A DNA stretch of 33,966 bases. It comes from Thelocarpon superellum. Lineage: Eukaryota. Positions within the stretch are counted from its first letter, which is position 1. Each line of letters starts with the position of its first letter. The position numbers and the translations under genes are program-made. Under the pieces are notes generated by a model. It was given only the letters and a program-made list of their open reading frames with translations. It was not told where the DNA came from and did not search any database. The stretch is taken from positions 1-33,966 of the forward strand of contig JAPEUG010000174.1 in NCBI GenBank assembly GCA_026025795.1, in the 5' to 3' direction. Positions 2,449 through 33,700 of the stretch are shown here, one piece after another.

Positions 2449-4294
2449 ATGGCTGCGACCAAGACGTTCGTGCTCGATATCATCGATGGCTTTCGTCGTG
2501 ATCCCAACGCCCGTGCCCTGCCCCCGGGCATGTTACCGAACAACAACAAGCCTTGGGATATCGAGGACGCCTATGAGGCCACGGCCCGATCACCATTGGC
2601 GAGGCAGCTCAAAGCCCGTCATTTGCAGATGATCGCCATCGGCGGTGTCATTGGTACGTCGCACAATTGGCTCGGTCGCCCCGGATGCTGGTCTGACCTC
2701 TAACCTGTCGTGCGCAGGTGCTGGTCTCTTCATCAATACCGGTCGCGCTCTGGCTCTGGCGGGTCCTGGGTCGCTGGTGCTGGCCTTCGCCATCGTCGGC
2801 TCGGCCGTCTTTTGCACCGTCCATGCCCTGGGTGAGCTTGCGGTGTTGTTCCCCGTTGCCGGCTCCTTCTCCGCCTACTCGACACGATTCCTCGATCCGG
2901 CCTGGGGCTTTGCGATGGGCTGGAATTACGTCTTCCAGTGGTTGGCCGTGATTCCATTCGAGATCGTCGGCGCGTCCATCGCCGCCGATTACTGGGACCA
3001 CGGCGGCATCTCCAACGCCGTCTGGATCACCATCTATCTCGTTCTGCTCTGCATCGTCAATTGTCTCGACGTGCGTGCCTATGGTGAGGCCGAGTTCGTC
3101 TTCACCATGATCAAGGTGACGGCCATCGTCGGCTTCATCATCTTCGCGCTGGTGATCGATCTGGGCGGTGGTCCGAACGGTCACTATATTGGAGGCGAGT
3201 TCTGGCGCAACCCTGGCGCCTTCCTGAATGGATTCAAGGGGTTTGCCAGTGTTCTCTCCGTCGCAGCATTTGCATACGAGGGTGCCGAACTGGTCGGGCT
3301 CTGCGCGGCCGAGACCAAGTACCCGCGCCAGTCCATCCCGCCGGCCATCCGCAAGACCTTCTGGCGGATCACCTTCTGCTATGTCATCTCGATGCTCATG
3401 GTCGGACTGGTGGTCAGCAGCTCGGACCCGCAACTGGTGGCGCCGGCGTCGGCCATCGGCGACCCCACCGTTTCGCCCTTCATCATCGCCATTCGCAACG
3501 CCGGCGTCAAGGGACTTGATTCGGTGTTCAACGCCGTCATCCTCCTCGCCACATTCGAGGTGGCCAACTCGTCGCTGTACGCTACCACGCGCACCATGGC
3601 TGCGTTGGCCGAGCAGCGTCAGGCGCCAGCCTACTTGGCCTACATCGATCGACACGGTCGGCCCATAGCCGCGACCGGCACCTGTCTCCTAATCTCTCTG
3701 ATCGCCTATCTCGGTGCGACCTCGTCGAATTCGCAGACCAACGCGCTCGTCTGGATCACGTCCATTTCCAGTCTCGCCGGTATCTTCACTTGGGCCTCCA
3801 TCTGCCTCGTTCACATCCGCTTCCGCCAAGGCTGGGAATACCAGGGTCACTCCCTCGATGAGCTCGCCTTCCGTTCCGTCGTGGGGGTGATCGGGTCCTA
3901 CTACGCTTTCGTCGTCTACGTCCTCTTCCTCATCCTTGAACTATGGGTCGCCATTGTGCCCATCGGTTGGGAGGAACTCGGCCCCTCCGACCGGGCCACC
4001 AACTTCTTCCAGGCCTACCTGACGGTGCCTGTCATCATCGTCTTCTACGTTGGCTACAAGCTCTTCTTCCGCACGGACATGGTCCGCAACGACACGATGA
4101 ATCTTTCCATCGGCACGTTGAAGCTCACGCTGGAGCAGATCCGTGAGGAGGAGCGGGCGAAGCGCATGGAGCGTTCATCGTGGCGAAAGATCTACGAAGC
4201 CATCCAGTCGCGTCGACGCGGGCTGTTCTTGCGCAGCCAGGATGACACGGAGATGGACTGGGGTTTCCGGACGGCCAGCGCAGCCGATTTATAA
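2449..4294 (+). CDS. Amino acid permease, APC/YAT family, Gap1-like (exons 2449-2653, 2718-4294; 593 aa)
   Basis: ATG at 2449 in GCCATGG context. Intron 2654-2717 is GTACGT...CTAAC...CAG. The spliced protein reads LARQLKARHLQMIAIGGVIGAGLF, GELAVLFPVAGSF..YSTRFLDPAWGFAMGWNY, YGEAEF and GAELVGL, with about 12 hydrophobic segments. Confidence 0.93.
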
Positions 4295-5059: not shown

Positions 5060-6556
5060 CTAAGTGCGCGTGAGGACCGCCTGACATGTTTCCCAGACGG
5101 CGCACGCATCAGGTCGTTGACGGGATGACGCCCATGGATACTGAGTGCCTTGGCCCCACGTTGGGTCCAGCATCGGCTCGACCCTTTGGCCTCCGCTGCT
5201 TGAGCCCGCGTCGGGCGGGACGGTGGCGGCCTCTTCGGGTCCGTTGCCCGCAGTTTGGGTGCGGCCCGAGCTCACCGTGGCTGATCCGTCTCTTCTCGTC
5301 CCTTGATCGACGGAGCCTTGACTGCCAGAGCCCTGACCATCCGAGTCTTCCTCGCTCGGGTCCTCTCCGTTGGTGTCAGGGCGTAGACGCTGGCCCGTGG
5401 ATGTGTTGTAGTAATTCACTCCAAAACAGCCGACCCCCCTTGCTCTCGATAGCAGGTCAACAAATCCCATTGGTTGCTCACCGGGCCGGAGCTCGTGCAT
5501 GACGGACGTCAAAGTCCCGGCAAAAGCCAAGCCTTGGACCGGAGTCATCTGCGCGTATCCATCGCCGCCCGGCCCGTTCCAGAACTCGACGTAGAACTCG
5601 ACCGCGATTCCTCTGACGACGACCCATTGCGAATACATGGTTTGGGCAAGAATCGGTGCCGAGCGAGAGGCAACATCGGTGTTCATGGCTACTTGAAGTG
5701 AAAGCCTCAAAGAACTCATCGCTACCATCAAGGCTTCATGTAGCTCGTTTTCCGGCAGGCTGGTCACTGCCGCCTGCACCGGCTGTGGTTGATTGATCAA
5801 TAGCAGGCGAGCAAATGGGAAAACATTGTACCGGCTGTCTTCGGATGCTGATGCCTTCGCTTTTCCCTTCCCTTTGCCCGATGATGTGAGACGGCGGCTT
5901 GGTGAAAGGAGAGGAGTCGATTGTGTTGGTATTGAGTCGTTGAGTGCATTGACAAGCACCTCATCCATTTGGACGACATGCAGCGGAGCCATGATACCGA
6001 GACATGCGTAAACGACTCCGTCCTGGTCCTTGATTAAGGCCGAATACAGCGTCTGATATCTGGGGTTTTGCTCGGTGTCTTTCAGAAGGACTTGGAGCAC
6101 CGTGGTATAATCGGCCGAGGTCAAGAGCAATGGCGTCGGATTGGAAGGCGAAGGCCAGACCGCGATCTCCAGCTCGTTGAATGTAGTACTGAAGGAAGCA
6201 TCCGGCGCCTGGGTCGATGGCCCACTAGAGGCCGCATCGATCGCTGCCCGAAGGGCTGGCTGGAGCTTTTCGGCCCCAACATGTAATGCTGGCACAGTGT
6301 AATTGCCATCCACCAGGTCACCGTGGCTGAACGTTAGACTGAATCGTTTTCCTAGGATCTCCAGCGACCCTGAGGCGCCAAGTGGAAAGGTCTTGGGCAG
6401 AAGAGCCGTCAGGCCATGAGCGGCGCGTTTAGTCACCGTGTCGATGGCTCGAGGTAGAGAGGTAGAGTCATGGTGCATGCCGGTGGCGGTGGTGACAGCA
6501 CCGGCATGGGCACAGAGAGCAGAAGACGAGGCAATGAGAAGGACTGACCAGTGCAT
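5060..6556 (-). CDS. Intronless hypothetical secreted protein (498 aa), no recognised family
   Basis: Long single ORF with AAA-ATG start context and a signal-peptide-like N-terminus (MHWSVLLIASSSALCAHAG). Dibasic KR sites occur early, followed by two globular-looking regions and a G/S/D/E-rich low-complexity tail. Confidence 0.75.
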   Translation of the reverse strand: MHWSVLLIASSSALCAHAGAVTTATGMHHDSTSLPRAIDTVTKRAAHGLTALLPKTFPLGASGSLEILGKRFSLTFSHGDLVDGNYTVPALHVGAEKLQPALRAAIDAASSGPSTQAPDASFSTTFNELEIAVWPSPSNPTPLLLTSADYTTVLQVLLKDTEQNPRYQTLYSALIKDQDGVVYACLGIMAPLHVVQMDEVLVNALNDSIPTQSTPLLSPSRRLTSSGKGKGKAKASASEDSRYNVFPFARLLLINQPQPVQAAVTSLPENELHEALMVAMSSLRLSLQVAMNTDVASRSAPILAQTMYSQWVVVRGIAVEFYVEFWNGPGGDGYAQMTPVQGLAFAGTLTSVMHELRPGEQPMGFVDLLSRARGVGCFGVNYYNTSTGQRLRPDTNGEDPSEEDSDGQGSGSQGSVDQGTRRDGSATVSSGRTQTAGNGPEEAATVPPDAGSSSGGQRVEPMLDPTWGQGTQYPWASSRQRPDACAVWETCQAVLTRT

Positions 6557-7921
6557 TTTGGGCTGACAAAGAGTGGGTGGGATGTGATGCCACGGGTCTT
6601 GACCTTCATATTTCTCTCTGCAAGAAATGCCGCTCGTGCCTTGGCCGCACTACTTGTATATGTTGGCGCATCGCTGTGACCGGCAAACGGAAATCGAGCA
6701 AGCATTGAACATAGAGCCAGCAAGACGCCCACGACGGTTCGGATAAAGATCTTGTGTGCACGATTTCCTGACATGAGGAGGGACTTTATGTTATGAGGGA
6801 TATGGTTATTGGCTCGGATGAGAGAGATCACTTACGGTAACGATAGGGAGAGAGAGGTTACGAGAACTCCACCCGACTTTATGGCACAGACGAATGTTTA
6901 TACTTGCACACGTACCAATGCACAGATTTTTGTGCAGGACGAAGTGTGGTAATCGCTGACGGAATAAGCTTGTTTGTGGAAGAGCGCGCCACCGGTCGAC
7001 GATGGGATCGATGGTGGGATCGATGATGCGGGCGATGACCCGGATTGGTCCGCCAGTCGATGGAGAATGTTGGAGCTGACATGCTCGTAGGGATAAACAG
7101 TTGCGCATGATACGGTTGGCCTTGAACCACGACCTACATTGTCGGGATGCACGCCACGTGCCTTCGGACCAATCCAAAAGGTTAGTGGCCCCAAACCAAT
7201 GCCGCAGCTGCTCACATCGCTCCCTAGAACACCCCAGCACAGCCCCAGTGTTCCCTGGGTCACGCGACGGGCCAACTAGGTTGTGTGAGCAAGGGGCGGC
7301 TTCGCGTACGCCGTAGATTGGGATGAGTAACGAATGTGTTGCAACGTTCGCACGTTTGGGTAGGAAGGCCAGCAGCGATAGGCCCACTGATTGACTGTAG
7401 AGGTCGGAGTCAAGGCCCGTGCCGCCTCGCTACTACGCTAGGTCACGTGCCGGGGTTGCGCAGCTATCGTCCCTATCAAAGTGGTCCATAGACGTTTAAC
7501 TATACTACTGCAATCCATAGGGGCCAACTGACAGTCACGTAACTTACAGCGTGACATGTTCAACCATCCCGCGATTAGCACGCGAACCGAAACCGCACGC
7601 TGATCGTTAACCCCACGTCCACTCCTCAACCTCTATTTGCCTTCTCTCTTCCCACCGATATCTGGAACCCGTGGTCTCGTGATCAGCTTCACGGCTGGCT
7701 CGTTTTCCTCGGAACCCGCACGTCAAGCCACCGTGAGACATCACCAGCGGCTGCCACAGCCTTCGCCTCGGTCTTCTTCGCCTTCACTCTCCACCTCGTC
7801 CCCTACCTGACCGACAAGCGGGCTACCCCACCCACCACACGCCGGCCTCACGCAGTGGACGTGCCCAACCCAGACTTGAGACCACCTGTGTTGGGAGATC
7901 CTACGCTCGTCGCTCGGCACG

Positions 7922-9004
7922 ATGAGTAGTCCACGGAGGAGGATCGAGACAGATGTGAGTCGCTTCACCCGGCTGAGGTCGACCGATGAGATAGAGAGCT
8001 GATCGTGCCGGTTCGTCCGGGACTGTAGGTGATGAAGTAGGTGTCCATGTCACGAACATCTGCGACCACTCTAATCGGCTGGTAGGATGTAGGGCCACCC
8101 TGCTGAGACGTCCTCACGACTGGAGCCGGGCAACGCGCGGTGACGACGTGACGCGATGTGCCGGCTGACGTGTGAGATAGGTTGATGAGCGACTACGAGG
8201 TGACACTGGTGAACGACAACAGTAAGTCCTGTGGCTCTGCACCCTGATGGAGCAGTCGCGACCAGCTGGCATCGCTTTGACTGACTTGACTACAGTGTAT
8301 GTGGTCCCCTTTCTCGCTGGCTCGCTCGACGGCCACCAGACTCCTCACACACCTCGATCCGATCCAGGCAAGAATTCTACGTTCGATTCAAGGGCCCGGA
8401 AGAGAGTAAGTGAGCCTGCAGCGAGCATCATTTCGGGACCTAGGGATTGATCAAACGCAGCGCCCTTTGCGGGTGGCCTCTGGAAGGTGCATGTGGAATT
8501 ACCGGATCAGTATCCCTACAAGAGCCCGAGCATCGGCTTCGTGAATCGAATCTTCCACCCCAACATCGACGAGCTGTTCGTGTCTCCATGACGGGCAAGC
8601 GGGGAGCGCCTCGAGCTGACGAGACGGGCTAGGTCTGGATCCGTGTGCCTCGATGTCATCAACCAAACGTGGTCGCCCATGTTTGACATGATCAACATCT
8701 TCGAGGTCTTTCTGCCCCAGCTCCTGCGGTACCCCAATCCTACCGACCCACTTAACGGCGAAGCGGCGGCGTTGTTGATGCGGGAACCCAAGGGCTACGA
8801 GGTCAAAGTGAAAGGTGAGGATGCCTGGGCCGCCGTCTCGAGCCGTACCTGACTCGACTTGTGAGCCAAGAGTACGTGTCCAAGTACGCCACCAAGGATG
8901 CCGCGGACGAGGCCGGCGCCGACAGCGAAGAGGAAGACGAGATGAGCTCGGTGGGATCCTTCGAATCGGGCGATGAGGAGCCAGCGGGGACGATGGAAGT
9001 GTAA
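7922..9004 (+). CDS. UBC8: Ubiquitin-conjugating enzyme E2, Ubc8/UBE2H. 9 exons: 7922-7954, 8029-8036, 8086-8088, 8181-8221, 8296, 8368-8405, 8461-8575, 8633-8814, 8871-9004; 184 aa
   Basis: Spliced product is [125 protein letters not shown]...[10 protein letters not shown] plus an acidic tail. It has the HPN motif and catalytic Cys in GSVCLD. Exon lengths sum to 555 nt. Confidence 0.95.
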
Positions 9005-12000
9005 GGAGATTTATCTGCGGACGTCGGGAGCACGGAGTTTGGTGGAGCTGCGATATTATCATGTGCAGCTGAACTTTCTGGATTTTCTCATTTGCTCTCT
9101 CTGCTCTCTTTGTGAGGCGCGGTAAGGATCATACAGATTGACTCGACATGGAGCAGCCGGAGAGATGAAGCGCGTGACATCCTTTTCTCTTGTTTCCTTC
9201 CCCGTCATCCATAATAGACATGTCTATCTCTCACGCGGGATTCAGCATCTCGAGATATCCGCCCTCCTTGCACCATGTATCTTTCACCCAGACGCGGGCT
9301 CGCCGCACATCAGAAAGGCACCCTTGAGGGGGCCACTCCCCCTTAGCTTGATCTTCCACACCCTTCGCCTCCCTACTCCTGCAAAGCCGCCACATGCGAA
9401 AGACCCTGCCGCCGATTCGCCGAAGGCGACGGAGCTCTCCACGTCTCAACGCCGATCCCATCAACCTAGATGTCCCGTAAGCATGGCACGGCGTGCCCGT
9501 CACCCGTGGGGTGGCTATCACGGCACGACCGGCAGGTGCGCGCATCATGCCAAAAGCAGCATCCTGACGGCGTGGCGAAACAGGACAGGGCAGGTAAAGA
9601 CAGGGCAGAGCAGCTGTCGACATGTCTGCGAGGCGGCGGCAGACCTCATGCGGCGCCACAAGCTCCCTCCCAGTCATTTGCCCGGGATGGACACCAATCC
9701 AGACATACCAATCTTGGTATGTCTGGGTTGCTATCCGTCCTCGTAGGTATCAGCACGTATGCCACGTAGAGGGTCAACGAGGCAAAAGAAGGGCCGGTGC
9801 CGGTGTTGGATGAGGCGGGGTGCCGGGTTCCGGGCGACGACTTCCACCGGCTTGCAGCGCCGAGGTTTTCCACACTGCATCTACTGAAAGTGCCATTCAC
9901 ATTCACATTTCAAGGTAGTTCCTTGCTCAGGTACAAGAACCATGTACAAATACATGTATGGCACGAAAGCAGGACATCTAGCTCCGCGTGTTGCATGTCA
10001 GCCGCGGTGGGTGGGACAACCCTGCCAGATGCATCGCTGCATGCACAGTGTGCTGCAGGGTGCATCGACACACCCACGTGCAGAGCATCTCATTTCGTTT
10101 CATAAAGGTCGCCGCACCTGATGGTATTTGAGGATATCGTAGTAGGTCGTACGGTAGAGGATGGGCTGTTGGGAGATTGAGACATACGCGCCTAGCATGG
10201 CCATGTCATTCCGCTGACGGTGGGAGGTCGGGCTGTTCGTCCGTCCTCTTCGTCTCTACTTGTGCTGCTGGAAGAAATGGTGGGCTAGAGGCCTGCGTAC
10301 GCCTTCGAACCACACCACTTCTGAGTATCTAGCTGCATACTCTGTGTACGAGCAGCATTCACTTGGATGGAAGCTTAAAGGCGTTGTGCGCCACGCACTG
10401 GAACTTAGGACATGAGAAGCTCGTCATTCATATGAGGCTGGAGTATTTGAGATCCCGTCATGCCGGTTGCTGGCCTGTGTATCGGGGTCCGGAAGTGCCA
10501 TCCGCATACTGTGCAAACGGCAGATTCCGGACCCACCGCGACAAAAGCACGGCAAAGGTAAGGCAACCAGGAGGCTCCCTCCACGGTTCGGTGCTCGTAG
10601 GTGGACCAATCGCCCGTCCCTTAGCGGGAGAAGGGGAGGAAATGGTGCATTCCACCGGACCCTGTCAGGCCACCGCCATCAGGCTCGCCTGGCCGCCCGT
10701 CGGGTTTCTCTCGGGTGTTTAAACACCTCTCCTGCACGATATCGGCCCGCGTGATTGGGCGGAAGAAGCATGCCCCATTTGATGAGCCCGCTCTGGAACC
10801 ATGAGCCGAAAGCCGGGAACCGAATCGAGTAGGGAATGACTCAGCCCCGCAGCGGCTTGGGTCGATCTGCTGCTGCTCGTCCCAGCGGCATGGTAGGTGT
10901 GGTGCGAGGACCGATACGTTCGACGATATTTGATCTTTAATTGTGCTCCACCCGCTGGACCCCAACTCTGACTCAACCCTTACCCGCCGGCAGCAAACCG
11001 GCTCCGCGTTGGGACGTAAGAGAAGGGGTTCTAATGCTGCGAATGTGCCGTCTGTTCTCGACCATACCAGGGGGGTGACGGTGGGCCTCGATCGCTCCGC
11101 CGGCTACATCCACGCCCCTGAGTGAACCGGCTAGTCTTTCGGAGTTTAAAACGATGGATGCTGAATCGGGTCGCCGAGTGGGCGCCGGCTCCGGTCCGGC
11201 CAGTGCCCTCCAGGACGCTTCGACCGTCGAACGGCTCAGAATTTCCATCGCTTGCACCCCCCAACCCCATCATCCAGGGATGTGGCCCCCCTTGCGCAGG
11301 TCATGTGGAAGCCCACTAAACTTAAGGCCTGTAGCCACCAATCTACCGACGGGCCCCTTCACGATCAATCATCTCTTGCACCTTGAAACCGCCACTGGTG
11401 TGACCGTCGATCTGTTTCCATGCGAGCGTGGCCAGGACCCAATCATGATGACCGGAGAGCGAGATTCGACGGGGTGCGACACGTTCCACAGCCTCCGCCA
11501 CCGCTTCTCCCGTGAGAAGTCACTTGCGCCGACGCTCCCACCCCCGGTCGACCCTCATTTTCGCCTGCGCATCTTCTAGCGCCAAAGCTGTCCGCGCGTG
11601 AGAATTCCCGTAGGTGCAGACGAGACGGATTCTTCGTGCATCAGTAGCCGCCCGTGCGCGACGTAGCCCACCCTCTCCGCGCCTTCGTCGCCGTGACTAA
11701 GGCCTCTAGGGCTCTTTAGCAGAGACCTAGACATGCTCCCTTCGGCTTCGGGCAGCTTCGAGAAGCCGTCGATCTCGCCAAAACACGAAGGCTTCGGGCC
11801 CACTTACTCCCCCGGGTGCCGGGTGGCAAGTTCGGGAAGGGCTCCGAAGGGCTAAGGCCGGATGCACGCGCTCTGCTCAAAGACCCACCGGCCTGCACGC
11901 GGGCCCACAAAGCTTCTGCCCATCCATGGGGTATGAGCAGCCTGTTGGCAGATCCGAACCCACCTACACCGCGTCGCCACTGCTTCTGCACCGACCGGCG

Positions 12001-16739: not shown

Positions 16740-18839
16740 ATGGCCCGGCCGCGGCGGGAGTCGCGCGATGAGGCCCGGCGCTCCAAGCCAGCCGGCCACC
16801 GGACCGCCGGCCGCGGCGAGCGTGAGCGTGCGCATCGATCCTCGCGGTCTCCGGAGAAATCCAGCGCCGGTACAGGCTCGTCACATACCAGTCTGTCCAT
16901 CGACGCGCTCGCGAAGCTGGACGCCGAGAATGCGAGGGCGGCCTTGATCGAGAAGGAGAAGACCACGCGCGGGGCGGCACATGGCACCAGAGCGAAACGA
17001 CATCAGCAACACAAGAAGAAACGGAGAGTGGTCTCCGGTCCCGCGCTGGAGGAGGGACGAGTCTCGCGGCGGTTGCGGGGGGGAGACCGGAGGAATAAAC
17101 GGTGTTGTTGTACGACTCCGGCCCCGTGTGTCCGCACGAGGAGCGAGGCTAATCCTGCGCATCCTAGGGTTGCTGGTCGGCGTCGTCATTTTGTTGCTGG
17201 TGATTTTGGTGCCGGTCGGCGTGCTGGTGATTGGGAAGCAGAATCAGGATTCGGGAGGGTCCAGCCCGAGCGCGACCGACACACCTCCGCCCTCCAACGC
17301 GAATCTGAATTCCATCTCACCGACGAGCATCCCGGAGTCGGCCAAAGGCTCCATCCTGGACCCGTTTGTGTGGTACGACACGACGGACTTCAACGTGACC
17401 TACACCGATGTCAAAGTGGGCGGCTTGCCCATCATGGGCCTCAACTCGACGTGGGACGACACGACGAGCGCCAACAACAACACGCCGCCCCTCAACAAGG
17501 ACTGGAGCTACGGCACCTTGCCCATCCGCGGCGTCAACATCGGCGGCTGGCTCTCGATCGAGCCGTTTATCACGCCGTCGCTGTTTAGCTCGTATGATTC
17601 GAAGCTGGAGATCGTCGACGAATACACGCTCTGCCAACACCTCGGCCCATCGGCGGCGGCGACGACGCTGGAGAAGCACTACGCCACCTTTGTCAATGAG
17701 CAGACGTTTATCGACGTCGCCGCGGCGGGGCTGGACCATGTGCGGATTCCTTATTCCTACTGGGCCGTCGTGACGTACCCGGGCGATCCGTACGTGCCGC
17801 AGATCTCCTGGCGATACCTGCTGCGGGGCATCGAGTGGGCACGCAAGCACGGACTGCGCGTCAACCTCGATCTTCACGCGCTGCCGGGCAGCCAGAACGG
17901 ATGGAACCACAGCGGTCGGCAGGGGGTCATCGGATGGCTGAACGGCACGGACGGAGACCTGAACGCGCAGCGATCGGCCGATATCCACGGGCAGCTGTCG
18001 CAATTCTTCGCGCAGCCGCGGTACAAGAACGTGGTGACCATCTACGGGCTGGTCAACGAGCCGAAGATGACGGTGCTGCCGGTCGACGCGGTGGAAGCGT
18101 GGTACGAGAAGGTGGTGCCGCTGGTGCAGAAGAACGGCGTGACGGCCAAGATTGCCTTTGGCGATGGCTTCCTGGGTCTGCCCAAGTGGAAGGGCCAGCT
18201 CAGCGACCTGCAGAACCTGGTGCTGGACGCGCATCAATACGTCATCTTCAACACGGACCAGCTCGCGTTCACGCATCAGACCAAGGTGCAGTTCTCGTGC
18301 ACGGGCTGGGCGTCGCAGATGTCCGCCAGCGTGGACACGTCGACGGGGTATGTACCCTGTTGCGTCTACGACGAACGACCTTCCCGGGCCGCGGTGGGCT
18401 AACCTCATGCTCTAGCTTCGGCCCAACGCTATGTGGCGAATGGTCGCAGGCCGACACGGACTGCGCGCAATATCTGAACAACGTGAACGTCGGCGCGCGA
18501 TGGACGGGGACGCTGAACGTGGACGACCCAACGCAGCAGGTGCTGACGCCGAGCTGCCCGCCCAACAGCGGCACGTGCGAATGCGACGACGCCAACGCCG
18601 ACCCGTCCAAGTACTCCAGCATCTACAAGCAGTGGCTGATGCAGTTTGCCGAGGCGCAGATGCTCAGCTTCGAGATCGGCTGGGGCTGGTTCTACTGGAC
18701 CTGGGACACCGAGGCCGCCGTGCAGTGGAGCTACAAGAAGGGTCTGGCCGCCGGCATCCTTCCCCCCTTGGCCTACCAGCGCAACTTCAACTGCTCTTCG
18801 GATGTCTCGACTTATGCCGGTCTGCCTGAGAACTATTGA
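16740..18839 (+). CDS. exgD: Membrane-anchored GH5 glucan 1,3-beta-glucosidase, ExgD-like (exons 16740-17109, 17168-18347, 18416-18839; 657 aa)
   Basis: Basic cytosolic N-terminus (KKKRRVVSGPALEEG) then a single TM helix (WLLVGVVILLLVILVPVGVLVI). Catalytic region has IRGVNIGGWLSIEPFITPS, DHVRIP, DLHALPGSQNGWNHSG, NEP (acid/base), CGEWS (nucleophile) and GWFYWTW. Introns are GTACGA..GCTAAT..TAG and GTATGT..GCTAAC..TAG. The exact start codon is less certain. Confidence 0.9.
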
Positions 18840-23252: not shown

Positions 23253-24768
23253 TTATTGATTGTCCATGGCCCACGGCGCTTTCGTTCCGGGCTCGCCCGT
23301 TTGAGAGCGAACGGTCGTCGACAACCAGGGCGCTCTGGCTGCAGCCGAGCCTTCTGTGCGTGGTGCAGGCATGGCGGTAGGTGCTGCACCTGCCCACGGT
23401 GCTGCTGTTCCTGCTTGCGACGCGATGCGCGAGCTGGCCGCGCTCATTTGTGAGGTGCCTGCCTTTGCTCTCGGTGGCTGCGATGACGTGTGGATGGACG
23501 TCGACGCAAGTGGGGCGGGAGCGTCGGGATCAGCTTCCCAGCGGAACAGAGACCCGAACGGAAAGTGCTGCACGACGGGGAACTTGGACAAGACCTCGGC
23601 GTTGTACATCTTGATCATCCCCTGTGAAAGTTGGCCGTCTGGTTAGAGCCGTTCATCCGTCCCACGCGCTCCACATACCTTGTTGATCTTGGCCCACCCC
23701 GCCCGAACGCCCGAGATGTCGTACAGGATGGGACTATGCTCCCAGAATGGTCCTTTCTTGACGTCGTAGATGAAGCCGATGGCGGCGAAATACATGTTCC
23801 GCCCTCGCTCTCGCTCCACCACGCCGGCCGTTGCCACGTCGCCGGCGTTGGCGGCACCGGGGAGGGAGCCCTCGGCGGGGATGTGATCGAGGCTCGTGAT
23901 GGCCGGGCAGAGCTGGGCCGAGCCAAAGATGTACGGCAGAAAGGAATGGTCGTCTAGACCCCAGACCCCGTGGGAGCCCGCGGGTTCGAGGTTGTACGTC
24001 CTGATCAAGCGACGGACCAGGTGGAGGTATCTACGCACGCGGGGGACACGTCAGGCACAGGGCTTCTGCATGGTGCTTGACACCGATGGCTAGGTACAGT
24101 ACGTACGGCTCGATGACGCCGAGAACGATGCCTCTCTCCTCGCTACCGGCCTCCGCCGCGGCAAAGCCACCCAGCATCCACACTGATCCCAAGAACGCAA
24201 GAAAGCTGAGCTCGTGTCCCGTTCCGTAATCCAGACGCTGCGCGCTCCCGAAGCTACCGAGGAGATAGGACGAGAGTTCCGCTTGTGCGTCCACGCCCTC
24301 GTCTCCTTCAGATCGAAAAGAGAGGACCACGGGCGGAAGATGGGTCGAGAGCAACTCTGCCACTCTTGCTTCCAGCGTCTCGCACCATCGCCGGAAGCTG
24401 ACATTACCGAAGCGGCGAGGCCCGGGATCTGGTGGCGCTTCCTCGACGAGATCTTCCAGCTTTTGCAAGAGGCCCCGCAGCCGTGTCACGGTGTCGGAGA
24501 AGACCACCTTGGAAGATCCAATCTCCCATGGTTGGATCCGATCGTGACCATCTTGCTCGGTGACAAGACGAGGGTACATGGCTCCATTGAGCTGGAAGAC
24601 GAAGGTCATGATGTCATGATACGCTCGTGACGACAGAAAATGCGTCACGTCTCCTCCATCGTGGATCTTCTTGGCCGGGACGGCGAACGAGCGAGGCGTT
24701 TGCCGGTCCAGAACCTGTAGTTGTGGAAAGGTGGCGGGACTCTGCTGACTTGCATGGCTCGCCGCCAT
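23253..24768 (-). CDS. RRD1: Phosphotyrosyl phosphatase activator (PTPA) / PP2A activator 1 (exons 24768-24107, 24030-23679, 23621-23253; 460 aa)
   Basis: Motifs [65 protein letters not shown] and [26 protein letters not shown]. Rrd1 versus Rrd2 is called from the [16 protein letters not shown] and SKFPVVQH variants, from memory. Confidence 0.9.
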
Positions 24769-24897
24769 TGGGTTCCTGCCTTGGATTAGTGCTCAGCCGT
24801 GGACTGGGTTTCATGGAAGTTCTATCACCCGTTCCTGTTCGCGTTTCCGAGAGAGATTAATCGTAAAGACAGTGGGGAGGTATAGACCAGCTGGCCG

Positions 24898-25091: not shown

Positions 25092-27599
25092 ATGGCTCCC
25101 CGACGAGCCAAAGCACCACGGCCTTGGAAGCCCACGAAGAAACGCCAGAACCGATCAACACCTGCCGAGCACGGCGAGAAGGATGCGCAAGGACGAGATG
25201 AACTGGGCCGAGATGACGGAGTAGATGCTGCGCCAGAAGGTGGCGCGCACGAGGAGGACGACGAGGCAGGCGAGGATGAGGCGATGGAAGGTAGGGATTC
25301 TAGAAGAAAGCTCGGACATATCTAATTCTAACTTGCCATGTGCTCTTAGTCCAACCTGGAATTACCACCCGTGCAAGCCCCAGCCACCGAGAAGAGACCT
25401 CTTCCCTCGAAGAAGAGCGGCTGCTTTCGACACAGCTCCGGTCCGAGACCGCGACAGTTCCAGCTCCCCGGGGATCTGAAGTGCCTCCTGCCGTCTCGAG
25501 TGAAGCAGATGGCGTCCAGCCGGGTCGTGAAGCAGATGGCGTCGCCGCGGCCGATCGGTTAAATAGGGCGTTGAGGCCCACCACGAGGGAAAGTCGACGA
25601 AATCAGCCTCTATCCTCGGCCGAGCAGCTTCTGGGTGGCCCGAAGCTGGGGAAGCGCAAGCGTCCCACAGTATATGGAGCCAAAACACAAGACGCTCCCA
25701 GCTCACCGCCAAGGATAACACGACGATCTGGTCGCAAATCTGGCCCGGTGACGGCTCAAGACGCTGTTGCCTCGACAATGTCTGTGCCTTCTCAAACCGG
25801 GAAATTCAGGGGGGAGGCACGCGTGGGTGCCCATCCTGCACCACAGTTGGAACCACCCGCGGAGATTGAGTCCAGATGGCCTGCGTCTGAAAATGTTCCA
25901 TCAAGGAGCCGACGAGGAAAGAAGAAAAGGACCGCCCCTCGCGAGACACCGGCGCAAGCCGTCCGACAGACTCGTCAGACTGGCAACGTCCGTAATGGCT
26001 CAACAGAGGAGGGAGATGCACATAGCGCTTCGAGACTTGAGACTGGGGTCAGCGAATCGAATCCACGTGAGAGAAGATCCAAAGCACGCTCGACGAGAGC
26101 GACACATCCTATGGTCGACGAGACAGCGGTCGTGAACTCCGGTGCGACCCCTGGGAATCGTGAAGATGGCAAAGGGCAAGCAATGGCCAACCGAGAGCCC
26201 GGAAACGGGCCTGAAGACGGGAGTGAAGAATCCCAGTCTGGAGAGGAGGGTGGGTCTGGGCTTTTCATGCAACGGCAGCCGTTCCGCAGGGCTGTGCGAG
26301 AACTTCGCCGGAAGATGCGGAGAGTTGTGGGAGACTACGATCTTTCCATCCAAAGCAAAAAGATGAAGTCATTGCGCAAGCAGATATCCAAGGCCCGCGA
26401 TCTTGCAATCCAAGCAAAAGTGGACGGCTCGCCGCACGTACAACTGGCCGACAAATGTCGCGCCACCGTGAAGAAGATTGCAGGGGTGATCAGAAATCTT
26501 GGAGAGGATACAGACAACGAGAAGACCGGTGAAGTGGGGCAAGATCTCTACGTCTTTGTCCTCCCCGAAATGTTCGGACTACTCGACATGATCATCACCT
26601 ACCTCGATCAAGACGACCACGTCAGCAGTCCTGCAATTGCCGAGATCCTCGAATTCATCCGCCTTATCCAGACACTTTGCGAGACAGCAGAAGGCTGGAA
26701 ACGTGAGGTGATCAACTCAATCCCAGTGTACCGGGCGATCAAGAGCGCAGCCATGCAGCTGGGGGCGATGGAGGAAGTGCTCTCTCGAGAGCTGGCGCGG
26801 ATTATTAAGGGGGTACGAGACCGCAAGCAACAGAAATGGCTGGAGGAGCGCCGCGAGAAGTTCGAAGAAGAGCAGGCCAGGAGAACCGCGGAGCACCAGC
26901 AACGGGTCTTCGAGCGGCGACTTCGCATCAACGAGCAACTACAGAAGACGACGCACCCGCGCTTTGCCACCTACATCCGCGTAGACGATGATCTCTGGAC
27001 GCCACCGCGCTCAAGCACTGGCATCCTGTTACCCCTCAGCGACCATCAGCGACCCGGCGCGGGGCAGGTACCAACGGTGGGGGTTGCAGGCGAGCAGGAA
27101 GACAACGAGATGGTGGAACGCGTACACATGTTCGATCGGAGGACGGACCCTCCCGTGGACAGATCCCTGTGGACGCTTCTGGAGACGGAAGCGCTGATTG
27201 AAGGGCTCGAGCGGTTCACGGGTACGTCACAGGCCCCCTTGCCCGGGTGTCCGTTTCTTCCTTTCCACCTTTGTTTCATGCGCAACATGACGACCTGTCC
27301 TTTCATTCCCGATCCGCCAACCTACTTTCTCATTTAAAACATGACTACCTACTCTCTCACAACAGCGACTGACTGCCTGACTACCGGACCGGCTGACTGA
27401 TTACGCGACACCAGGACCCGATCGCTATTTGCAGATCTTGGAAGAGTACAGCAACAGAGGCGACGCCCTGTGTGAGCGTGACATTGACCAGCTGCATGCG
27501 AAAGCAAAGGAAATCCGGTCGGACTTGTTGACGGATATGGCCATGCATCCTGAGTCAAGCGAGCAGCCGGCGCCGGACTGGCTTCTTAGTATCAGGTAA
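25092..27599 (+). CDS. Hypothetical probably nuclear protein with a helical mid-domain and a degenerate C-terminal Myb/telobox-like domain (exons 25092-25290, 25350-27221, 27415-27599; 751 aa)
   Basis: Introns GTAGGG..CTAAC..TAG and GTACGT..CTGAC..CAG join the ORFs in frame. NLS-like GKRKRP and RRGKKKR. The spliced C-terminus reads WTLLETEALIEGLERFTGPDRYLQILEEY...LCERDIDQLHAKAKEIR. Confidence 0.75.
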
Positions 27600-27755: not shown

Positions 27756-29344
27756 CTAGACAGACAGCTTGACCGTCTCGGCATGGTCCAAAGCGGCCCG
27801 ATAGGGCGCCATGGCCCTCGCGACCTCACCAGCAGGCCCCACAAACTTCTCGACCTGCTGTGGCGCGCGGCCGATGAAGGTGGCTGGGTCCTGGAGTCGA
27901 GGCAGATCGGCCGCGATGGGGGCAAAGAAGGCGTCGTGCTGGATGCGCGCGATCAGGTCGTTGTCGCGCCCTTCTTTCTTCACGACGTCGCTTGCTTCGT
28001 GCGAAAGTACGCGGATGTGCTCGTGCGCTTCTTGTCGTGAGATGCCTTTGGCTACTAGCGCCATGATGATGCTTTCTCTGTGGAACGAGTCAGATGATGT
28101 GTGAGCGAATGAGGGGTTGGGTGGGGTGAGGGAGAAGAGGGAAAGGGAACGGACGTGGCCATAAAAGGGAGTTCCTGCGCGATGCGTCGCTGGATGACGG
28201 CTGGATAGACGACGAGGCCCGACACGACGTTGTTGAGCGTCGACATGAGTCCGTCGGCGCAAAGATACATCTCCGGGAGCGTGATGCGACGGATGGCGCT
28301 ATCGTCCAGAGTCCGCTCGAACCACTGCGCCGCGTAGGTATCGGCGGCGTCTTTGTTCAAGTTGGCCAGCTTGCGACCCAGGGAGCAGATGCGCTCGGAC
28401 CGCATGGGATTGCGTTTGTACGCCATGGCGGAGGAGCCGATCTGGTCTTTCTCAAAGGGCTCTTCCAGCTCCTTCATCATGGCCAGATGCCGGATGTCGC
28501 CGCCGATGCGCTGGCAGGTGGCGCCAAAGGAGGAAAAGGCATTGCCAATGTCCACGTCCACTTTCCGCGTGTACGTCTGGCTGGACACCGCGTAGTCCGA
28601 CGAAAAGCCCGCCTTGGCAGTCACCAATTCATCCAGCCGCTCGACCTTGTCGTGGTCACCGCCAAAGATGGCCAGGAAGCTTGCTTGCGTGCCTGTCGTG
28701 CCCTTTGCCCCGCGGAAACGAATATCACGACGCGCGCGCTCCAGGTTTCTCAGATCCATCAGCAGATCCTGAACCCAGAGACACGCCCGCTTCCCCACCG
28801 TGACCAGCTGGGCGGGCTGACCGTGAGTGTAGCCGAGACATGGAAGATCTTTATACTCCGCGGCAAATCCCCGGAGCTTGTGGATGATGACGGCCAGCTT
28901 GGGCAGCAGGAGGTCCAACCCATCGCGGAGAAACATGAGGTCCGCGTTGTCAGTGCAATAGCATGACGTCGCTCCCCAATGGATGATGCCAGCGGCGGCG
29001 GGGGCAACCTGGCCATACGTGTGCACGTGGGCCATTACGTCGTGTCGCCTCCGTTTCTCCTCGGCCGCGGCCACGACGAAGTCATCGTCCGACATGGTCA
29101 GATGCTCCTTCATCTGGGCCAGGGCTTCATCCGTGATACCAGGCAGGCCAAGCTCCTTCTGCGCTTCAGCCAGCCAGAGCCACAACTGACGCCATGTCGA
29201 GGCTCGTTTGCGCGAGGAGAACAGGTGTGTCATCTCCTTGCCTATGTGCCCCGTCAGGATCTGGCAGGCTCATGGTGGGGTAGTGGGGTCATTACTGGCA
29301 TAGCGCTCACTCAGCGGGGTCTGGTATGTGTCGTGTTCCGACAT
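27756..29344 (-). CDS. ADE13: Adenylosuccinate lyase (exons 29344-29296, 29241-28155, 28077-27756; 485 aa)
   Basis: Motifs [52 protein letters not shown], the fumarate-lyase signature [16 protein letters not shown], and [11 protein letters not shown]. Exons sum to 1458 nt. Confidence 0.97.
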
Positions 29345-30200: not shown

Positions 30201-30755
30201 GGGTCAACTGCATGGACCCTGTAGATACCCTCGCCCGATCACCCGGTCATCAATACATCTGTTCCTGCACCAACGTCGACTCCGCTTGCTTTCCCATCAC
30301 CTGATCCCACAGCACTAACAGATACAAGACTACGGTCCGGCCGAGGTCTTCTGTAGCTCATCCTCCCTCTGACTCGTCGGTCTGGGGCCGACGCATGAGC
30401 TGGCCCTGATTGGCTTCGCCAAATCATCTCCACTCTCCGTTCAGACCGACTCTCTGCCATCAAGCTTGGTGAGTTGTCCCTCTATGCGCATGCTGTCGCA
30501 CGACAGACCCCGCCTTTTTGTCTAGCACACTTGCACACGGCATCTGCACCCACATGTACCTTCTCCGATCGAAATCGCATGCATCCCTTTCGCACATTGC
30601 CCCACGATGATCGGCGCCGATCGTCGTCTCTTCGTCTTGTAACCGGCGCGACGCCCACCAATTTCGATCGTATCACATTGAGGCAGACGTTGACGCTGGA
30701 GTGATTGTTAGGACCGGTTCCGTTCTGTGGTGAATCATTCATCTCCAACTACACA

Positions 30756-33700
30756 ATGGCCGAAGTCGAGCAACCCCCAAGTGAGGTCACGACCGACTCA
30801 CAGCCACCAGCCCCGGCAGAACCTACCAACGGCACGACGACAGCCGCGGAGAGCAACGGCGATGCGGCCAAAACGCAGTCGTCCAAGGTCGAGGCGAAAG
30901 CGGGCAAGAAAGATGCGGTCCCCCCGAAGCGCCCCTTGACCACCACGAAGCGGCCGTCGACCACCACGACCCCATCGACGACGAAACCCACCTCATCCAC
31001 CTCGGCGCGCACCACAGCGACTACCACTAGCAGCGGCCTCAATAAGCCTCCGACGCGCCCGCTCCCGGGCACGGCCACACGGCGGCCGGCGGGCAGCGCT
31101 ACCGGCGCACCGAGCGCCAGTGCCAGTCACAAGTCGCAGCCCTCCACCAGCTCCACCGATGAGGCCCGTGCCGTGTCGAAGCGTTCCTCCTTGGCTCCCT
31201 CCACGTCTACTCGCTCCCCCATGACCAAGTCCGTGGCCTCGACCTCAGACCGGCGCTCGACCATCACGCCGGGCACTGGCGCAGGTCGTAAGACCGAGGC
31301 CACGGCTACTCCTCCCACCACCACCACCACCTCCTCCTCCACAACTGTCAAGCCCAGAGCTTCTGTGGGTCCTACATCGCCCACCAAGACGGCCGCCACC
31401 AAGTCGACATCCCAGCCATCCAAGCCGACATCCCAACCAACCAAGCTCGCAACCCAGCCGACCAAGCCTACATCCCACCCGACCAAGCCTGCAGTAAGCG
31501 GCATCGTATCGGACGCAAAGAAGCGGCTCAGCTCGATCGTGGGAACGCCGGCGGTCCCAGCGCGTGGTCTCACCCGACCGGAGCGTGATTCTAGTGCTCC
31601 CACCAAGGAGGAGACAGCAAGCCTGAAGGAGCGGATTAAGGATCTTGAGGCCGAGGTGGGTACGCTACGGGAGAAGAGCCAAGAAGGAGAAGACGCCGCC
31701 ACCCCTGAAGAAGTCGCCGCCCTCAAGGCGCAAGCGCAGGCGAGCGAGGAGAAGGTAAGGAGCATCCGCAACGGTCGTGATGATAGCACGCCGCACGACG
31801 GACGCGAGGCTGATATCGTATAGGCAACTGCCCTCGAGGAAGAACTGCGCGGTGCGCAGCATAAACTCCTCGAGCTGGGTGAGGCGGTGGGTCAACAATC
31901 GGAGATTGTCGGAAACGCCGAGAAGAGGATTCGCGCTGAGCACGCGGCCATCATCGAGGAGCTCAAGACCTCCCACCAAGCTCACATCGAAGAGCTTCAA
32001 GCAAAATCGCGCGAGCAAGAGGCCGCCCATAAGGATGCCCTCACCACCAAGGACGGCGAGATCAAGTCGGCGCACGAGAGCACGTCCACGATCCAGACCC
32101 AGCTGGAGACACAACTCTTATCGATACAAGCGGCGCATAGCGAGCTGCAATCCAAACACGAGAAGACGATCCAGGATCTCCAGTCCCAGCATGAGACGGC
32201 CATCAAGTCGCTGACGGATCAACACGCGGCTGCCTTGAGCCAGGGTAACGGGCAGGCGGAAAGTGTCAAAGCCAGCAAAGACAAGGAATTGGACGACGTG
32301 CGCCAGCAGCACCAAGCATCTCAGAAAGCGCTACAAGACCAGCTCACCCAGATCCAGGCGGCACATGCCACGGCGCTCGAGGTGGAGACGAGCAAGTCCG
32401 AGAAGGCGCATCTCGAGCTGTCGAGCCTGAAGAAGGCCCTGGAAACCTTGGATGAAGACAGCAAAGCCAAGGATGGGCAGCATAGCGCCGCGCTGGCTCG
32501 TCTGCAGGCCGAGGCTGACTCCTCGTCCAAGGCTGCGGAGGAGCGAAGCAAAGAGATTGCCTCGATCAAGGAGAAGCATCGGAACGAGTTGAAGAGCCTG
32601 GGGGACGATCACGCCGCCGAATTCGAGGCGCTCGAGACCAACTTGGAATCGAAACAGAAGGAGCGGATCGCGGAGCTACAGGCCGAGCATGCCACACTAT
32701 CCAAGGCCAAGGAGGACGCCGCCAAAGTCCACGAGGAGTCGTTGAAGTCGCTCAAGACCGAGCACGCCACGGCGCTCGCGAAAGAAGCGACACAGTTGAA
32801 GAAAGGATTCGAGAAGCAGCTGGCTGGTCTAAAGGCCGCGCACGCCGAACTCATGTCCAAGGTCAAGAAGGAGCACGCGGAGTCCTTGGCGAAGAAGAAT
32901 GCCGAGCTGAAGACCCATAAGGAGGAGGCGGCGCAATCAGCGAGCGCATTCGAAACGCTCAAGAATACCCCGCCGGATGATTCAGAGGCCAAGAAGTACA
33001 AGGGTCAGCTCGAGAGCCTGAACGCTGAATTGGCAAAGGAGCAGATGTCTGCCGCCCGGATTCGCGAGGAGCTCGAGGCGGTGAAGAAAGCCAAGCCCGA
33101 CACGTCGGAAGCCGACCAGCTGAAGAAGGACCTTCAGGAGTTGACGATGCGCCACGCCGACGAGATCACCAAACTGAGCGACTCCGCCGGAAGCGAATCG
33201 GCCAAATCGAAGAAAGCGCTGCAAGAGCATGAGAAGACGAAGGGCGAGCTGGGAAAGGCGCTGGCGGAGGCGAAGACGCACCAGGCAAACCACGCCAAGG
33301 CTTTGCATGAGCTTGACCTCCAACAATCAAATGCGGCCAAGGCGCAAGGCGAGGCGAAGGAATCCAAGGGCAAGATCGAAGCGCTCGAAAAGGGTATCAG
33401 TGCGGCCAAGGAACAGCATGAAGGACTGGCAGCTGAGCTCAAGACGGCGCAAGGGAACGCGGCGACCAGTGCCAGCAAGGTCAAGGAGATCGAGGCCGAG
33501 CTGAAGACGACGCTGGCCGACATGAAGCGGCTGACCTCCCAAGACGGTGGGGCGGCCGGAGCGAAGCCGGGACTGGGCGTGAGCAAATGGGCAGCGGAGG
33601 GGGGAGATGAGAGTCACGACAAGGCGGCAGGTGAGGGCGAGGATCCCTCCGTCCCCGCAATTGTCAGGCTGCCTGCCCTCTTCTCAGATCAATGCTAATG

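What the first reader, a model, noticed from the sequence alone, without database searches (positions are those of the whole stretch)
7955..8180. Tandem 8-nt and 3-nt micro-exons in the UBC8 N-terminus
Seen in sequence: intron 7955-8028 (GTGAGT..GCTGAT..TAG), exon GTGATGAA (8029-8036), intron 8037-8085 (GTAGGT..CTAAT..TAG), exon GAT (8086-8088), intron 8089-8180 (GTAGGG..CTGAC..TAG). Joined they read GAT|GTG ATG AA|G AT|G TTG ATG = DVMKMLMSD, which matches the family spacing (yeast DVMKLLMSD). With the 1-nt exon, five introns fall within the first 29 codons. Inference: skipping the 3-nt exon is frame-neutral and deletes one Met from helix 1, the E1/E3-binding surface of E2s, so a one-residue isoform is possible.
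Basis: partly seen in the sequence, partly recalled or inferred. Interest (0 to 1): 0.72.

Follow-up and report, generated by a model that had tools for sequence, protein, structure and literature searches.

The report
Conserved 3-base exon in fungal UBC8
A housekeeping ubiquitin-conjugating enzyme gene of this fungus really is built with exons only 8, 3 and 1 bases long, a layout shared by many filamentous fungi and often mis-predicted in databases, but the 3-base exon looks routinely included rather than a switch for a second protein form.

Summary
Observation confirmed base for base: introns 7955-8028, 8037-8085, 8089-8180 flank an 8-nt and a 3-nt exon; with the 1-nt exon at 8296 the gene gives a 184-aa Ubc8/UBE2H, ungapped against yeast-length relatives. 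The 3-nt exon is conserved in 48 of 109 parsable metagenome loci (32 independent groups with the window; shuffles 0.1-4%); the other 61 lack intron 2 precisely and keep the same 15 coding bases. An mRNA-like contig matches a spliced orthologue at 98.8% without gaps, exon included. The skipped form turned up only in named genome annotations (30 of 108), never in 40 unnamed transcript-like proteins, so the one-residue isoform is unsupported, though minor skipping is not excluded (no spliced reads for this species). New: introns upstream of the 3-nt and 1-nt exons carry stronger branch points than the downstream ones (26:1 and 24:2), intron 2 is short, and intron 2 never survives loss of intron 1 or 3, suggesting intron-2-first splicing. 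The window is the exception to the branch-point rule. Exons of 3 nt or less are already known in fungi. This scan noted the 1-nt exon before in other genomes.

The parts
7922..7954 (+). UBC8 coding exon 1 (codons 1-11)
7955..8028 (+). Intron 1, 74 nt, phase 0; branch A at 8002, 26 nt from the end (long distance is conserved: median 23 vs 11-13 in other introns)
8029..8036 (+). 8-nt micro-exon (Val12, Met13, first two bases of Lys14); skipping shifts the frame
8037..8085 (+). Intron 2, 49 nt, phase 2; branch A at 8074 (TCTAAT, weaker than the RCTRAC found in 29 of 32 independent loci)
8086..8088 (+). 3-nt micro-exon GAT (last base of Lys14, first two of Met15); skipping is frame-neutral
8089..8180 (+). 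Intron 3, 92 nt, phase 2; branch A at 8168 (GCTGAC); probably the oldest of the three (present alone in loci that look non-Pezizomycotina)
8181..8221 (+). Exon 4, 41 nt
8222..8295 (+). Intron 4, 74 nt, strong branch motif ACTGAC at 8280
8296..8296 (+). 1-nt exon (middle base of Met29)
8297..8367 (+). Intron 5, 71 nt, no CTRAY branch motif
8368..9005 (+). Exons 6-9 (8368-8405, 8461-8575, 8633-8814, 8871-about 9005) with introns 6-8; catalytic Cys85 and acidic Ser-rich tail

Best explanation
These are constitutive coding micro-exons of the single-copy UBC8 (UBE2H-type E2) gene. SHOWN: the exons exist, are conserved across Pezizomycotina-like loci, and are included in an orthologue's mRNA-like contig. 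INFERRED (history): intron 3 is older; introns 1 and 2 were gained 11 and 3 bases upstream of it before the Pezizomycotina radiated, cutting the coding sequence into 8- and 3-nt pieces; several lineages later lost intron 2 precisely. INFERRED (mechanism): splice sites pair across each short intron (intron definition), so the exon need not be recognised as such; the introns are removed one after the other. Intron 2 is short and usually carries a near-perfect branch point, while intron 3 is longer with a weaker one, so the intron-2 donor pairs with its own acceptor, probably first, and skipping (a 103-179-nt excision) is disfavoured. The product is one 184-aa protein. In this species the branch-point hierarchy is absent and distance alone (49 vs 144 nt) would guard against skipping.
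For: 48 of 109 parsable loci have introns 2+3 around a 3-nt exon; 32 independent groups, all passing the strictest test vs 8 of 6400 shuffles. The other 61 keep 15 coding bases at this place. L038 (intronless) equals in-silico-spliced L068 at 98.8% over 826 nt, 0 gaps. L081 corrects the Tuber annotation at both micro-exons. 40 of 40 unnamed proteins have five residues between Asp11 and Met17. Branch point intron 2 > intron 3 in 26, < in 1, tie 5 of 32 (p 4e-7); intron 4 > intron 5 in 24, < in 2 (p 1e-5); second scoring 25:2 and 25:1, control pairs 6/7 and 7/8 are 8:8 and 8:9. Perfect RCTRAC in intron 2 29/32 vs 27/75 in introns 6-8. Intron 2 shorter than 3 in 24 of 32; only 1.7% of 235 introns reach 110 nt, merged length median 133. 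Intron states seen: 111, 101, 001, 100, 000; never intron 2 without 1 or 3. Intron definition in ascomycetes: PMC6616335 (passages).
Against: No spliced read or contig from this species: the one RNA run gave a single unspliced 209-nt contig over the micro-exons. The window is the only one of 32 with intron-2 branch score below intron 3 under the first scoring; under the second it ties only because a doubtful site was picked, and two other loci invert. Two named models (P0128, P0141) have the skip with a correct 1-nt junction. Intron 3's branch point is not significantly weaker than control introns (6/32 vs 27/75, p 0.11) and is no stronger in loci without an upstream micro-exon. Loci are related, so p-values are optimistic. 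In plants the downstream intron tends to go first (PMC8831610 passages). The tree is a quick, poorly resolved one (9 of 116 branches starred). L075 keeps intron 4 and lacks intron 5, against upstream-first for that pair.
Confidence: 0.83

Rival explanations
1. The 3-nt exon is an alternative cassette giving a functional Ubc8 lacking Met15, at least in this species, where the branch-point hierarchy is lost.
For: Skipping is frame-neutral. The window has a weaker branch motif in intron 2 than in intron 3. 30 named annotations show the exact skipped form, two of them otherwise correct at the 1-nt exon. In-frame skipping of a 15-nt exon occurs in A. niger rtnA (PMC6616335 passages), and alternative 3-nt exons are known in animals (PMC7392893, search listing).
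Against: No skipped junction in 12 intronless contigs, 40 unnamed proteins or the skip-baited short-protein search. 28 of the 30 skip annotations are also wrong at the 1-nt exon, and one is directly contradicted by a contig. No locus has lost the three bases, although 61 have lost intron 2. Segment length is fixed from fungi to human and Plasmodium; Met13 and Met17 are invariant, so a deletion shifts their register.
Confidence: 0.09
2. The micro-exon cluster is kept as a slow-splicing checkpoint: retention of introns 1-4 gives early stops, so UBC8 output could be tuned by retention and nonsense-mediated decay (E2 level regulates GID/CTLH activity in other organisms).
For: Retaining intron 2 or 3 stops translation after 14 or 15 residues in the window. 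All 48 loci with intron 2 keep all five 5' introns. Plant micro-exons have detained flanking introns (PMC8831610 passages). UBE2H/Ubc8 levels are regulated (PMC9180843 passages).
Against: An immediate stop is a by-product of phase-2 GTRAGT donors and holds in only 21 of 32 (intron 2) and 8 of 32 (intron 3) loci. 32 loci lack introns 1-3, and 19 of them still have other introns, so lineages live without the cluster. No conserved intronic sequence beyond splice signals (mean pairwise identity 0.55); no unusual fold (z 0.78).
Confidence: 0.06
3. The AG-GAT-GT element is a chance match inside one 144-nt intron and the protein always lacks Met15.
For: Many automatic gene models splice it this way.
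Against: Conserved in 32 of 32 independent loci vs 0.13-3.7% in shuffles; included in L038; family spacing needs it.
Confidence: 0.02

Closest known systems
Exons of 3 nt or less in Coprinopsis cinerea (PMC12230235; passages read)
   Same: Fungal internal coding exons of 1, 2 and 3 nt exist in numbers (89 gene models; 27 three-base exons in 26 genes) and break annotations.
   Different: A basidiomycete catalogue; the passages seen give no conservation, splice-signal hierarchy or UBC8 case.
One-nucleotide exon of Fusarium CYP621A (PMC12940212; part 1 of 3 of the text read)
   Same: Pezizomycotina micro-exon proved by orthologue alignment, an intronless length marker and transcript reads; constitutive.
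   Different: One exon in one genus; UBC8 has 8-, 3- and 1-nt exons in 29 codons over several classes, and the 3-nt exon is frame-neutral.
Conserved plant micro-exons, incl. APC11 and VPS55 1-nt exons (PMC8831610 passages; PMC4674806 listing only)
   Same: Old, mostly included, widely mis-annotated; flanking introns removed consecutively.
   Different: In plants the downstream intron tends to be removed first; the UBC8 signals point to upstream-first (inferred).
Stwintrons of Pezizomycotina (PMC6616335 passages)
   Same: Consecutive intron-defined splicing reactions a few bases apart.
   Different: Here bases between the introns stay in the mRNA and no splice signal is interrupted by another intron; not a stwintron.
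Vertebrate neural micro-exons with extended branch-to-acceptor distance (PMC12871342; abstract only)
   Same: Intron 1, upstream of the 8-nt exon, has a doubled branch-to-acceptor distance.
   Different: Not seen upstream of the 3-nt or 1-nt exon; no sign of regulation; no pyrimidine enrichment (0.57).
Yeast Ubc8 / human UBE2H, E2 of the GID/CTLH ligase (PDB 8pmq, 8pjn; PMC9180843 passages)
   Same: Best structural-database matches of the closest full-length relative; same helix-1 spacing, catalytic Cys, acidic tail.
   Different: Partner complex not tested in this genome.

Membership tests
Ubc8/UBE2H class III E2 | UBC domain with His-Pro-Asn and catalytic Cys | tested here: met
   PF00179 above cut-off on the window exon; HPN 74-76, Cys85
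Ubc8/UBE2H class III E2 | Closest solved relatives are Ubc8 and UBE2H | tested here: met
   P0071 (170/186 identical to the window protein): 8pmq E 7e-72, 8pjn 6e-67
Ubc8/UBE2H class III E2 | Acidic C-terminal extension | tested here: met
   13 Asp/Glu and 6 Ser/Thr in the last 32 residues
Ubc8/UBE2H class III E2 | Works with the GID/CTLH E3 | not tested
   known for yeast and human; not examined here
Constitutive coding micro-exon | Flanked by two complete introns (donor, branch, acceptor) | tested here: met
Constitutive coding micro-exon | Conserved in orthologues above chance | tested here: met
   32 of 32 independent loci vs 8 of 6400 shuffles
Constitutive coding micro-exon | Included in mature mRNA | tested here: met
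   for an orthologue, L038 vs L068; not shown for this species
Constitutive coding micro-exon | Inclusion near 100% in all conditions | not testable with these tools
   only assembled contigs and cluster representatives were available
Alternatively spliced (cassette) micro-exon | Skipped junction present in mRNA | tested here: inconclusive
   absent from all transcript-like sequences seen, but these hide minor isoforms
Stwintron | A donor, branch or acceptor interrupted by an internal intron, no exon bases between | tested here: not met
   8 and 3 coding bases are retained in mRNA; each intron has its own complete signals

The most novel reading that the evidence does not exclude
Filamentous ascomycetes splice exons of 3 nt or less by a simple encoded order: a short upstream intron with a perfect branch point is removed first, before a weaker downstream intron, the opposite of plants. 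The order is fossilised in evolution, because the partial intron-loss states seen (101, 001, 100, never 110, 011, 010) are exactly the intermediates of intron-2-first splicing, as expected if partly spliced RNA templated the losses. This species, having lost the hierarchy, would be a natural test case that leaks a Met15-less Ubc8.
Probability: 0.25. Interest if true: 0.65.

Novelty: new member of a known kind. Interest (0 to 1): 0.42.

Why it matters
Practically, UBC8 is mis-modelled in most public fungal annotations examined (18 of 108 named models right at both micro-exons, in a set enriched for errors by the bait), including a plausible-looking one-residue deletion that could be taken for an isoform. 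Mechanistically, one small housekeeping gene with 8-, 3- and 1-nt exons, natural intron-loss variants and a measurable branch-point polarity makes the question of how intron-defined spliceosomes keep exons shorter than a U1 footprint directly testable in a laboratory mould. It does not, on present evidence, add a regulated E2 isoform.

Tried and rejected
RNA evidence for this species: one run held 5% of the words; laying it gave 7 contigs, one of them an unspliced 209-nt piece over 8001-8209 with 5 differences (three listed, all intronic), no joints: uninformative for inclusion or skipping. Cluster members could not be listed, so isoforms hidden inside 90% clusters were not seen. Structure prediction was low confidence (pLDDT 57): used only for the approximate end of helix 1; no skipped form was folded. 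RNA folding of 8020-8200: not unusual (z 0.78), so no hairpin that loops out the exon. Careful tree did not finish; quick tree only, so gain and loss counts are rough. Stwintron reading rejected. Immediate stop codons on intron retention rejected as a selected feature. Second branch score picked doubtful sites in some introns, including the window's intron 2. The 68 of 68 ATG count at the 1-nt exon is partly built into my parser, which favoured T. Six of 115 loci were cut off 5' and left out of the intron 1-3 counts; L029 (24-nt intron 3) was parsed by hand. Literature searches found no paper on UBC8 micro-exons; the library lacks most subscription journals; no supplements were read.

Full report
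1. Observation. Nine exons (7922-7954, 8029-8036, 8086-8088, 8181-8221, 8296, 8368-8405, 8461-8575, 8633-8814, 8871-stop) give a 184-residue protein, with eight GT-AG introns of 49-92 nt. Of the eight combinations of the three micro-exons, only full inclusion and loss of the 3-nt exon alone keep the frame from start through exon 6; retention of introns 1-4 stops translation within 36 residues (that script had one downstream boundary off by one, corrected). The gene is single-copy in the 19-Mb assembly at DNA-search sensitivity. It is Ubc8/UBE2H: PF00179, Cys85, an acidic tail, and its relative P0071 matches yeast Ubc8 and human UBE2H best in the PDB with no gap across residues 11-20. By protein it groups loosely with Thelocarpon, Sclerophora, Peltula and Watsoniomyces (support 84).

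2. Conservation. Six were cut off upstream. Of 109 parsed, 48 have introns 1, 2 and 3 with the 8-nt and 3-nt exons, 15 lack intron 2 only (an 11-nt exon), 13 have intron 3 only, 1 has intron 1 only, and 32 have none. The 48 plus the window collapse to 32 groups under 70% intron identity (mean 0.55). The 3-nt exon is GAT in 26, GCT in 3, and ACT, ATT, GTT in one each: always last base of Lys/Arg plus two bases of Met/Leu. All 32 pass a test (acceptor, compatible triplet, donor, upstream branch motif) that 8 of 6400 shuffles pass. In the 61 loci without intron 2 the same 15 coding bases are present; none has 12. Loci with the full layout sit next to Pezizomycetes, Leotiomycetes, Sordariomycetes, Eurotiomycetes, Dothideomycetes and Lecanoromycetes proteins (class names recalled from the genus names), and loci lacking intron 2 appear in at least two, on the tree five, separate places. 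Loci that resemble Taphrina, chytrid or basidiomycete proteins have intron 3 without 1 and 2. I infer that intron 3 is older and introns 1 and 2 were gained in the Pezizomycotina stem. From memory, not from a call, human UBE2H has introns at the positions of introns 3, 6, 7 and 8, which would fit.

3. Inclusion versus skipping. Twelve loci have no intron at seven or more assessed positions; all carry the three bases. One, L038, matches the in-silico-spliced genomic locus L068 (all eight introns) at 98.8% over 826 nt with no gap: direct evidence that 8-, 3- and 1-nt exons are all included in an orthologue's mRNA-like contig. Of 223 proteins had a readable Asp11-to-Met17 segment. All 40 from unnamed metagenome or transcriptome sources (sorted by hand from the source columns) have five residues. 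Of 108 named annotations 51 have five, 34 four (30 the exact skip), 23 other lengths; 28 of the 30 are also wrong at the 1-nt exon, two (P0128, P0141) are not. One search was baited with a skipped model, so these shares overstate the error rate. The Tuber model P0053 is identical to the translation of intronless L081 except at the two micro-exon places, where L081 has the full form. A third search, baited with a skipped model against short proteins, listed 120 of 202 hits: 96 five-residue, one four-residue (an NCBI model), two longer, 21 unparsed, none of which shows the skip on inspection; many of these come from genes that lost the 5' introns, so they mark length rather than test splicing. 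Limits: contigs and 90% cluster representatives hide minor isoforms, cluster members could not be listed, and the only RNA run for this species gave an unspliced contig.

4. Protein consequence. In 34 clean orthologues position 15 is Met or Leu (17 each) between invariant Met13 and Met17, Ser18, Asp19. A low-confidence model ends helix 1 at residue 16. Helix 1 of E2s contacts E1 and RING E3s, mostly by its first half (recalled). Deleting residue 15 would shorten the helix end and shift the invariant residues' register; no gene seen has tolerated it.

5. Mechanism. Ascomycete splice sites pair across short introns (PMC6616335, passages). In the 32 independent loci intron 2 is short (median 54 nt) and has a perfect RCTRAC in 29, against 6 for intron 3 and 27 of 75 for introns 6-8; intron 4, upstream of the 1-nt exon, has it in 22, intron 5 in 5. 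Paired within loci: 26:1 and 24:2; with a second score 25:2 and 25:1, controls 8:8 and 8:9. Skipping would need a 103-179-nt excision where 1.7% of 235 introns reach 110 nt. Intron 2 is never kept when intron 1 or 3 is absent, the pattern expected if intron 2 is removed first and partly spliced RNA templated losses; the number of independent events is small and other routes of precise loss exist. Intron 1 has a branch-to-acceptor distance of median 23 nt against 11-13 elsewhere, also in loci with the 11-nt exon; unexplained. Against the model: the window itself has the weaker motif in intron 2; intron 3 is not significantly weaker than controls; plants favour downstream-first (PMC8831610, passages); relatedness inflates the p-values.

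6. Known context and novelty. Exons of 1-3 nt are catalogued in Coprinopsis (89 gene models; PMC12230235 and its preprint, passages); a Fusarium 1-nt exon is published (PMC12940212, part 1 of 3); a 20-nt regulated micro-exon is reported in Trichoderma (PMC11121469, passages). Searches found no paper on UBC8 micro-exons or on this branch-point polarity, within a library that lacks most subscription journals. Five earlier notes of this scan describe the 1-nt exon in other genomes; their lines do not mention the 3-nt or 8-nt exon. Verdict: a real, old, probably constitutive micro-exon cluster; new member of a known kind; the proposed isoform is unsupported; the splice-order signature is the part worth following. 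Interest 0.42.

Noticed in passing
window 7998-8028 and intron 1 of 32 independent loci: Branch-to-acceptor distance of intron 1 is conserved at about twice the usual length (median 23 vs 11-13 nt), also when intron 2 is absent; no shared motif or pyrimidine excess.
   Followed up: partly
window 8296: 1-nt exon; 68 other loci have both flanking introns; its upstream intron also has the stronger branch point (24:2).
   Followed up: yes
L075; L006, L020: L075 keeps only the intron upstream of the 1-nt position, Taphrina-like L006 and L020 only the downstream one, showing how the 1-nt exon can arise or vanish.
   Followed up: partly
L029, intron 3 position: A 24-nt intron with donor, branch motif and acceptor, and other very short introns in the same gene; organism not identified.
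   Followed up: no
L029, L062, after codon 30: An intron at a position not used in the Pezizomycotina loci (just after Gln30).
   Followed up: no
L003, L009, L036, L047: Genes or contigs with odd partial intron sets (for example only introns 1 and 8, or only 7); could be lineage losses or partly spliced RNA.
   Followed up: no
window 8868-8870: Intron 8 uses an AAG acceptor; other loci use AAG here too (2 of 23).
   Followed up: no
window 5063-6649 (-): 529-codon open frame with no Pfam match, just upstream of and divergent from UBC8.
   Followed up: no
window 2633-4294, 16948-18839, 23253-24792, 27756-29269: Ordinary neighbours by Pfam: amino-acid permease, GH5 glycosidase, PTPA phosphatase activator, lyase (adenylosuccinate lyase-like, name recalled).
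   Followed up: partly
window 25304-27337 and 30705-33698 (+): Long open frames without Pfam match; the second is Thr/Pro-rich then coiled-coil-like.
   Followed up: no
PMC12940212 vs PMC12230235: The Fusarium paper calls its 1-nt exon the first in a fungal gene, but the earlier Coprinopsis annotation lists 13.
   Followed up: no
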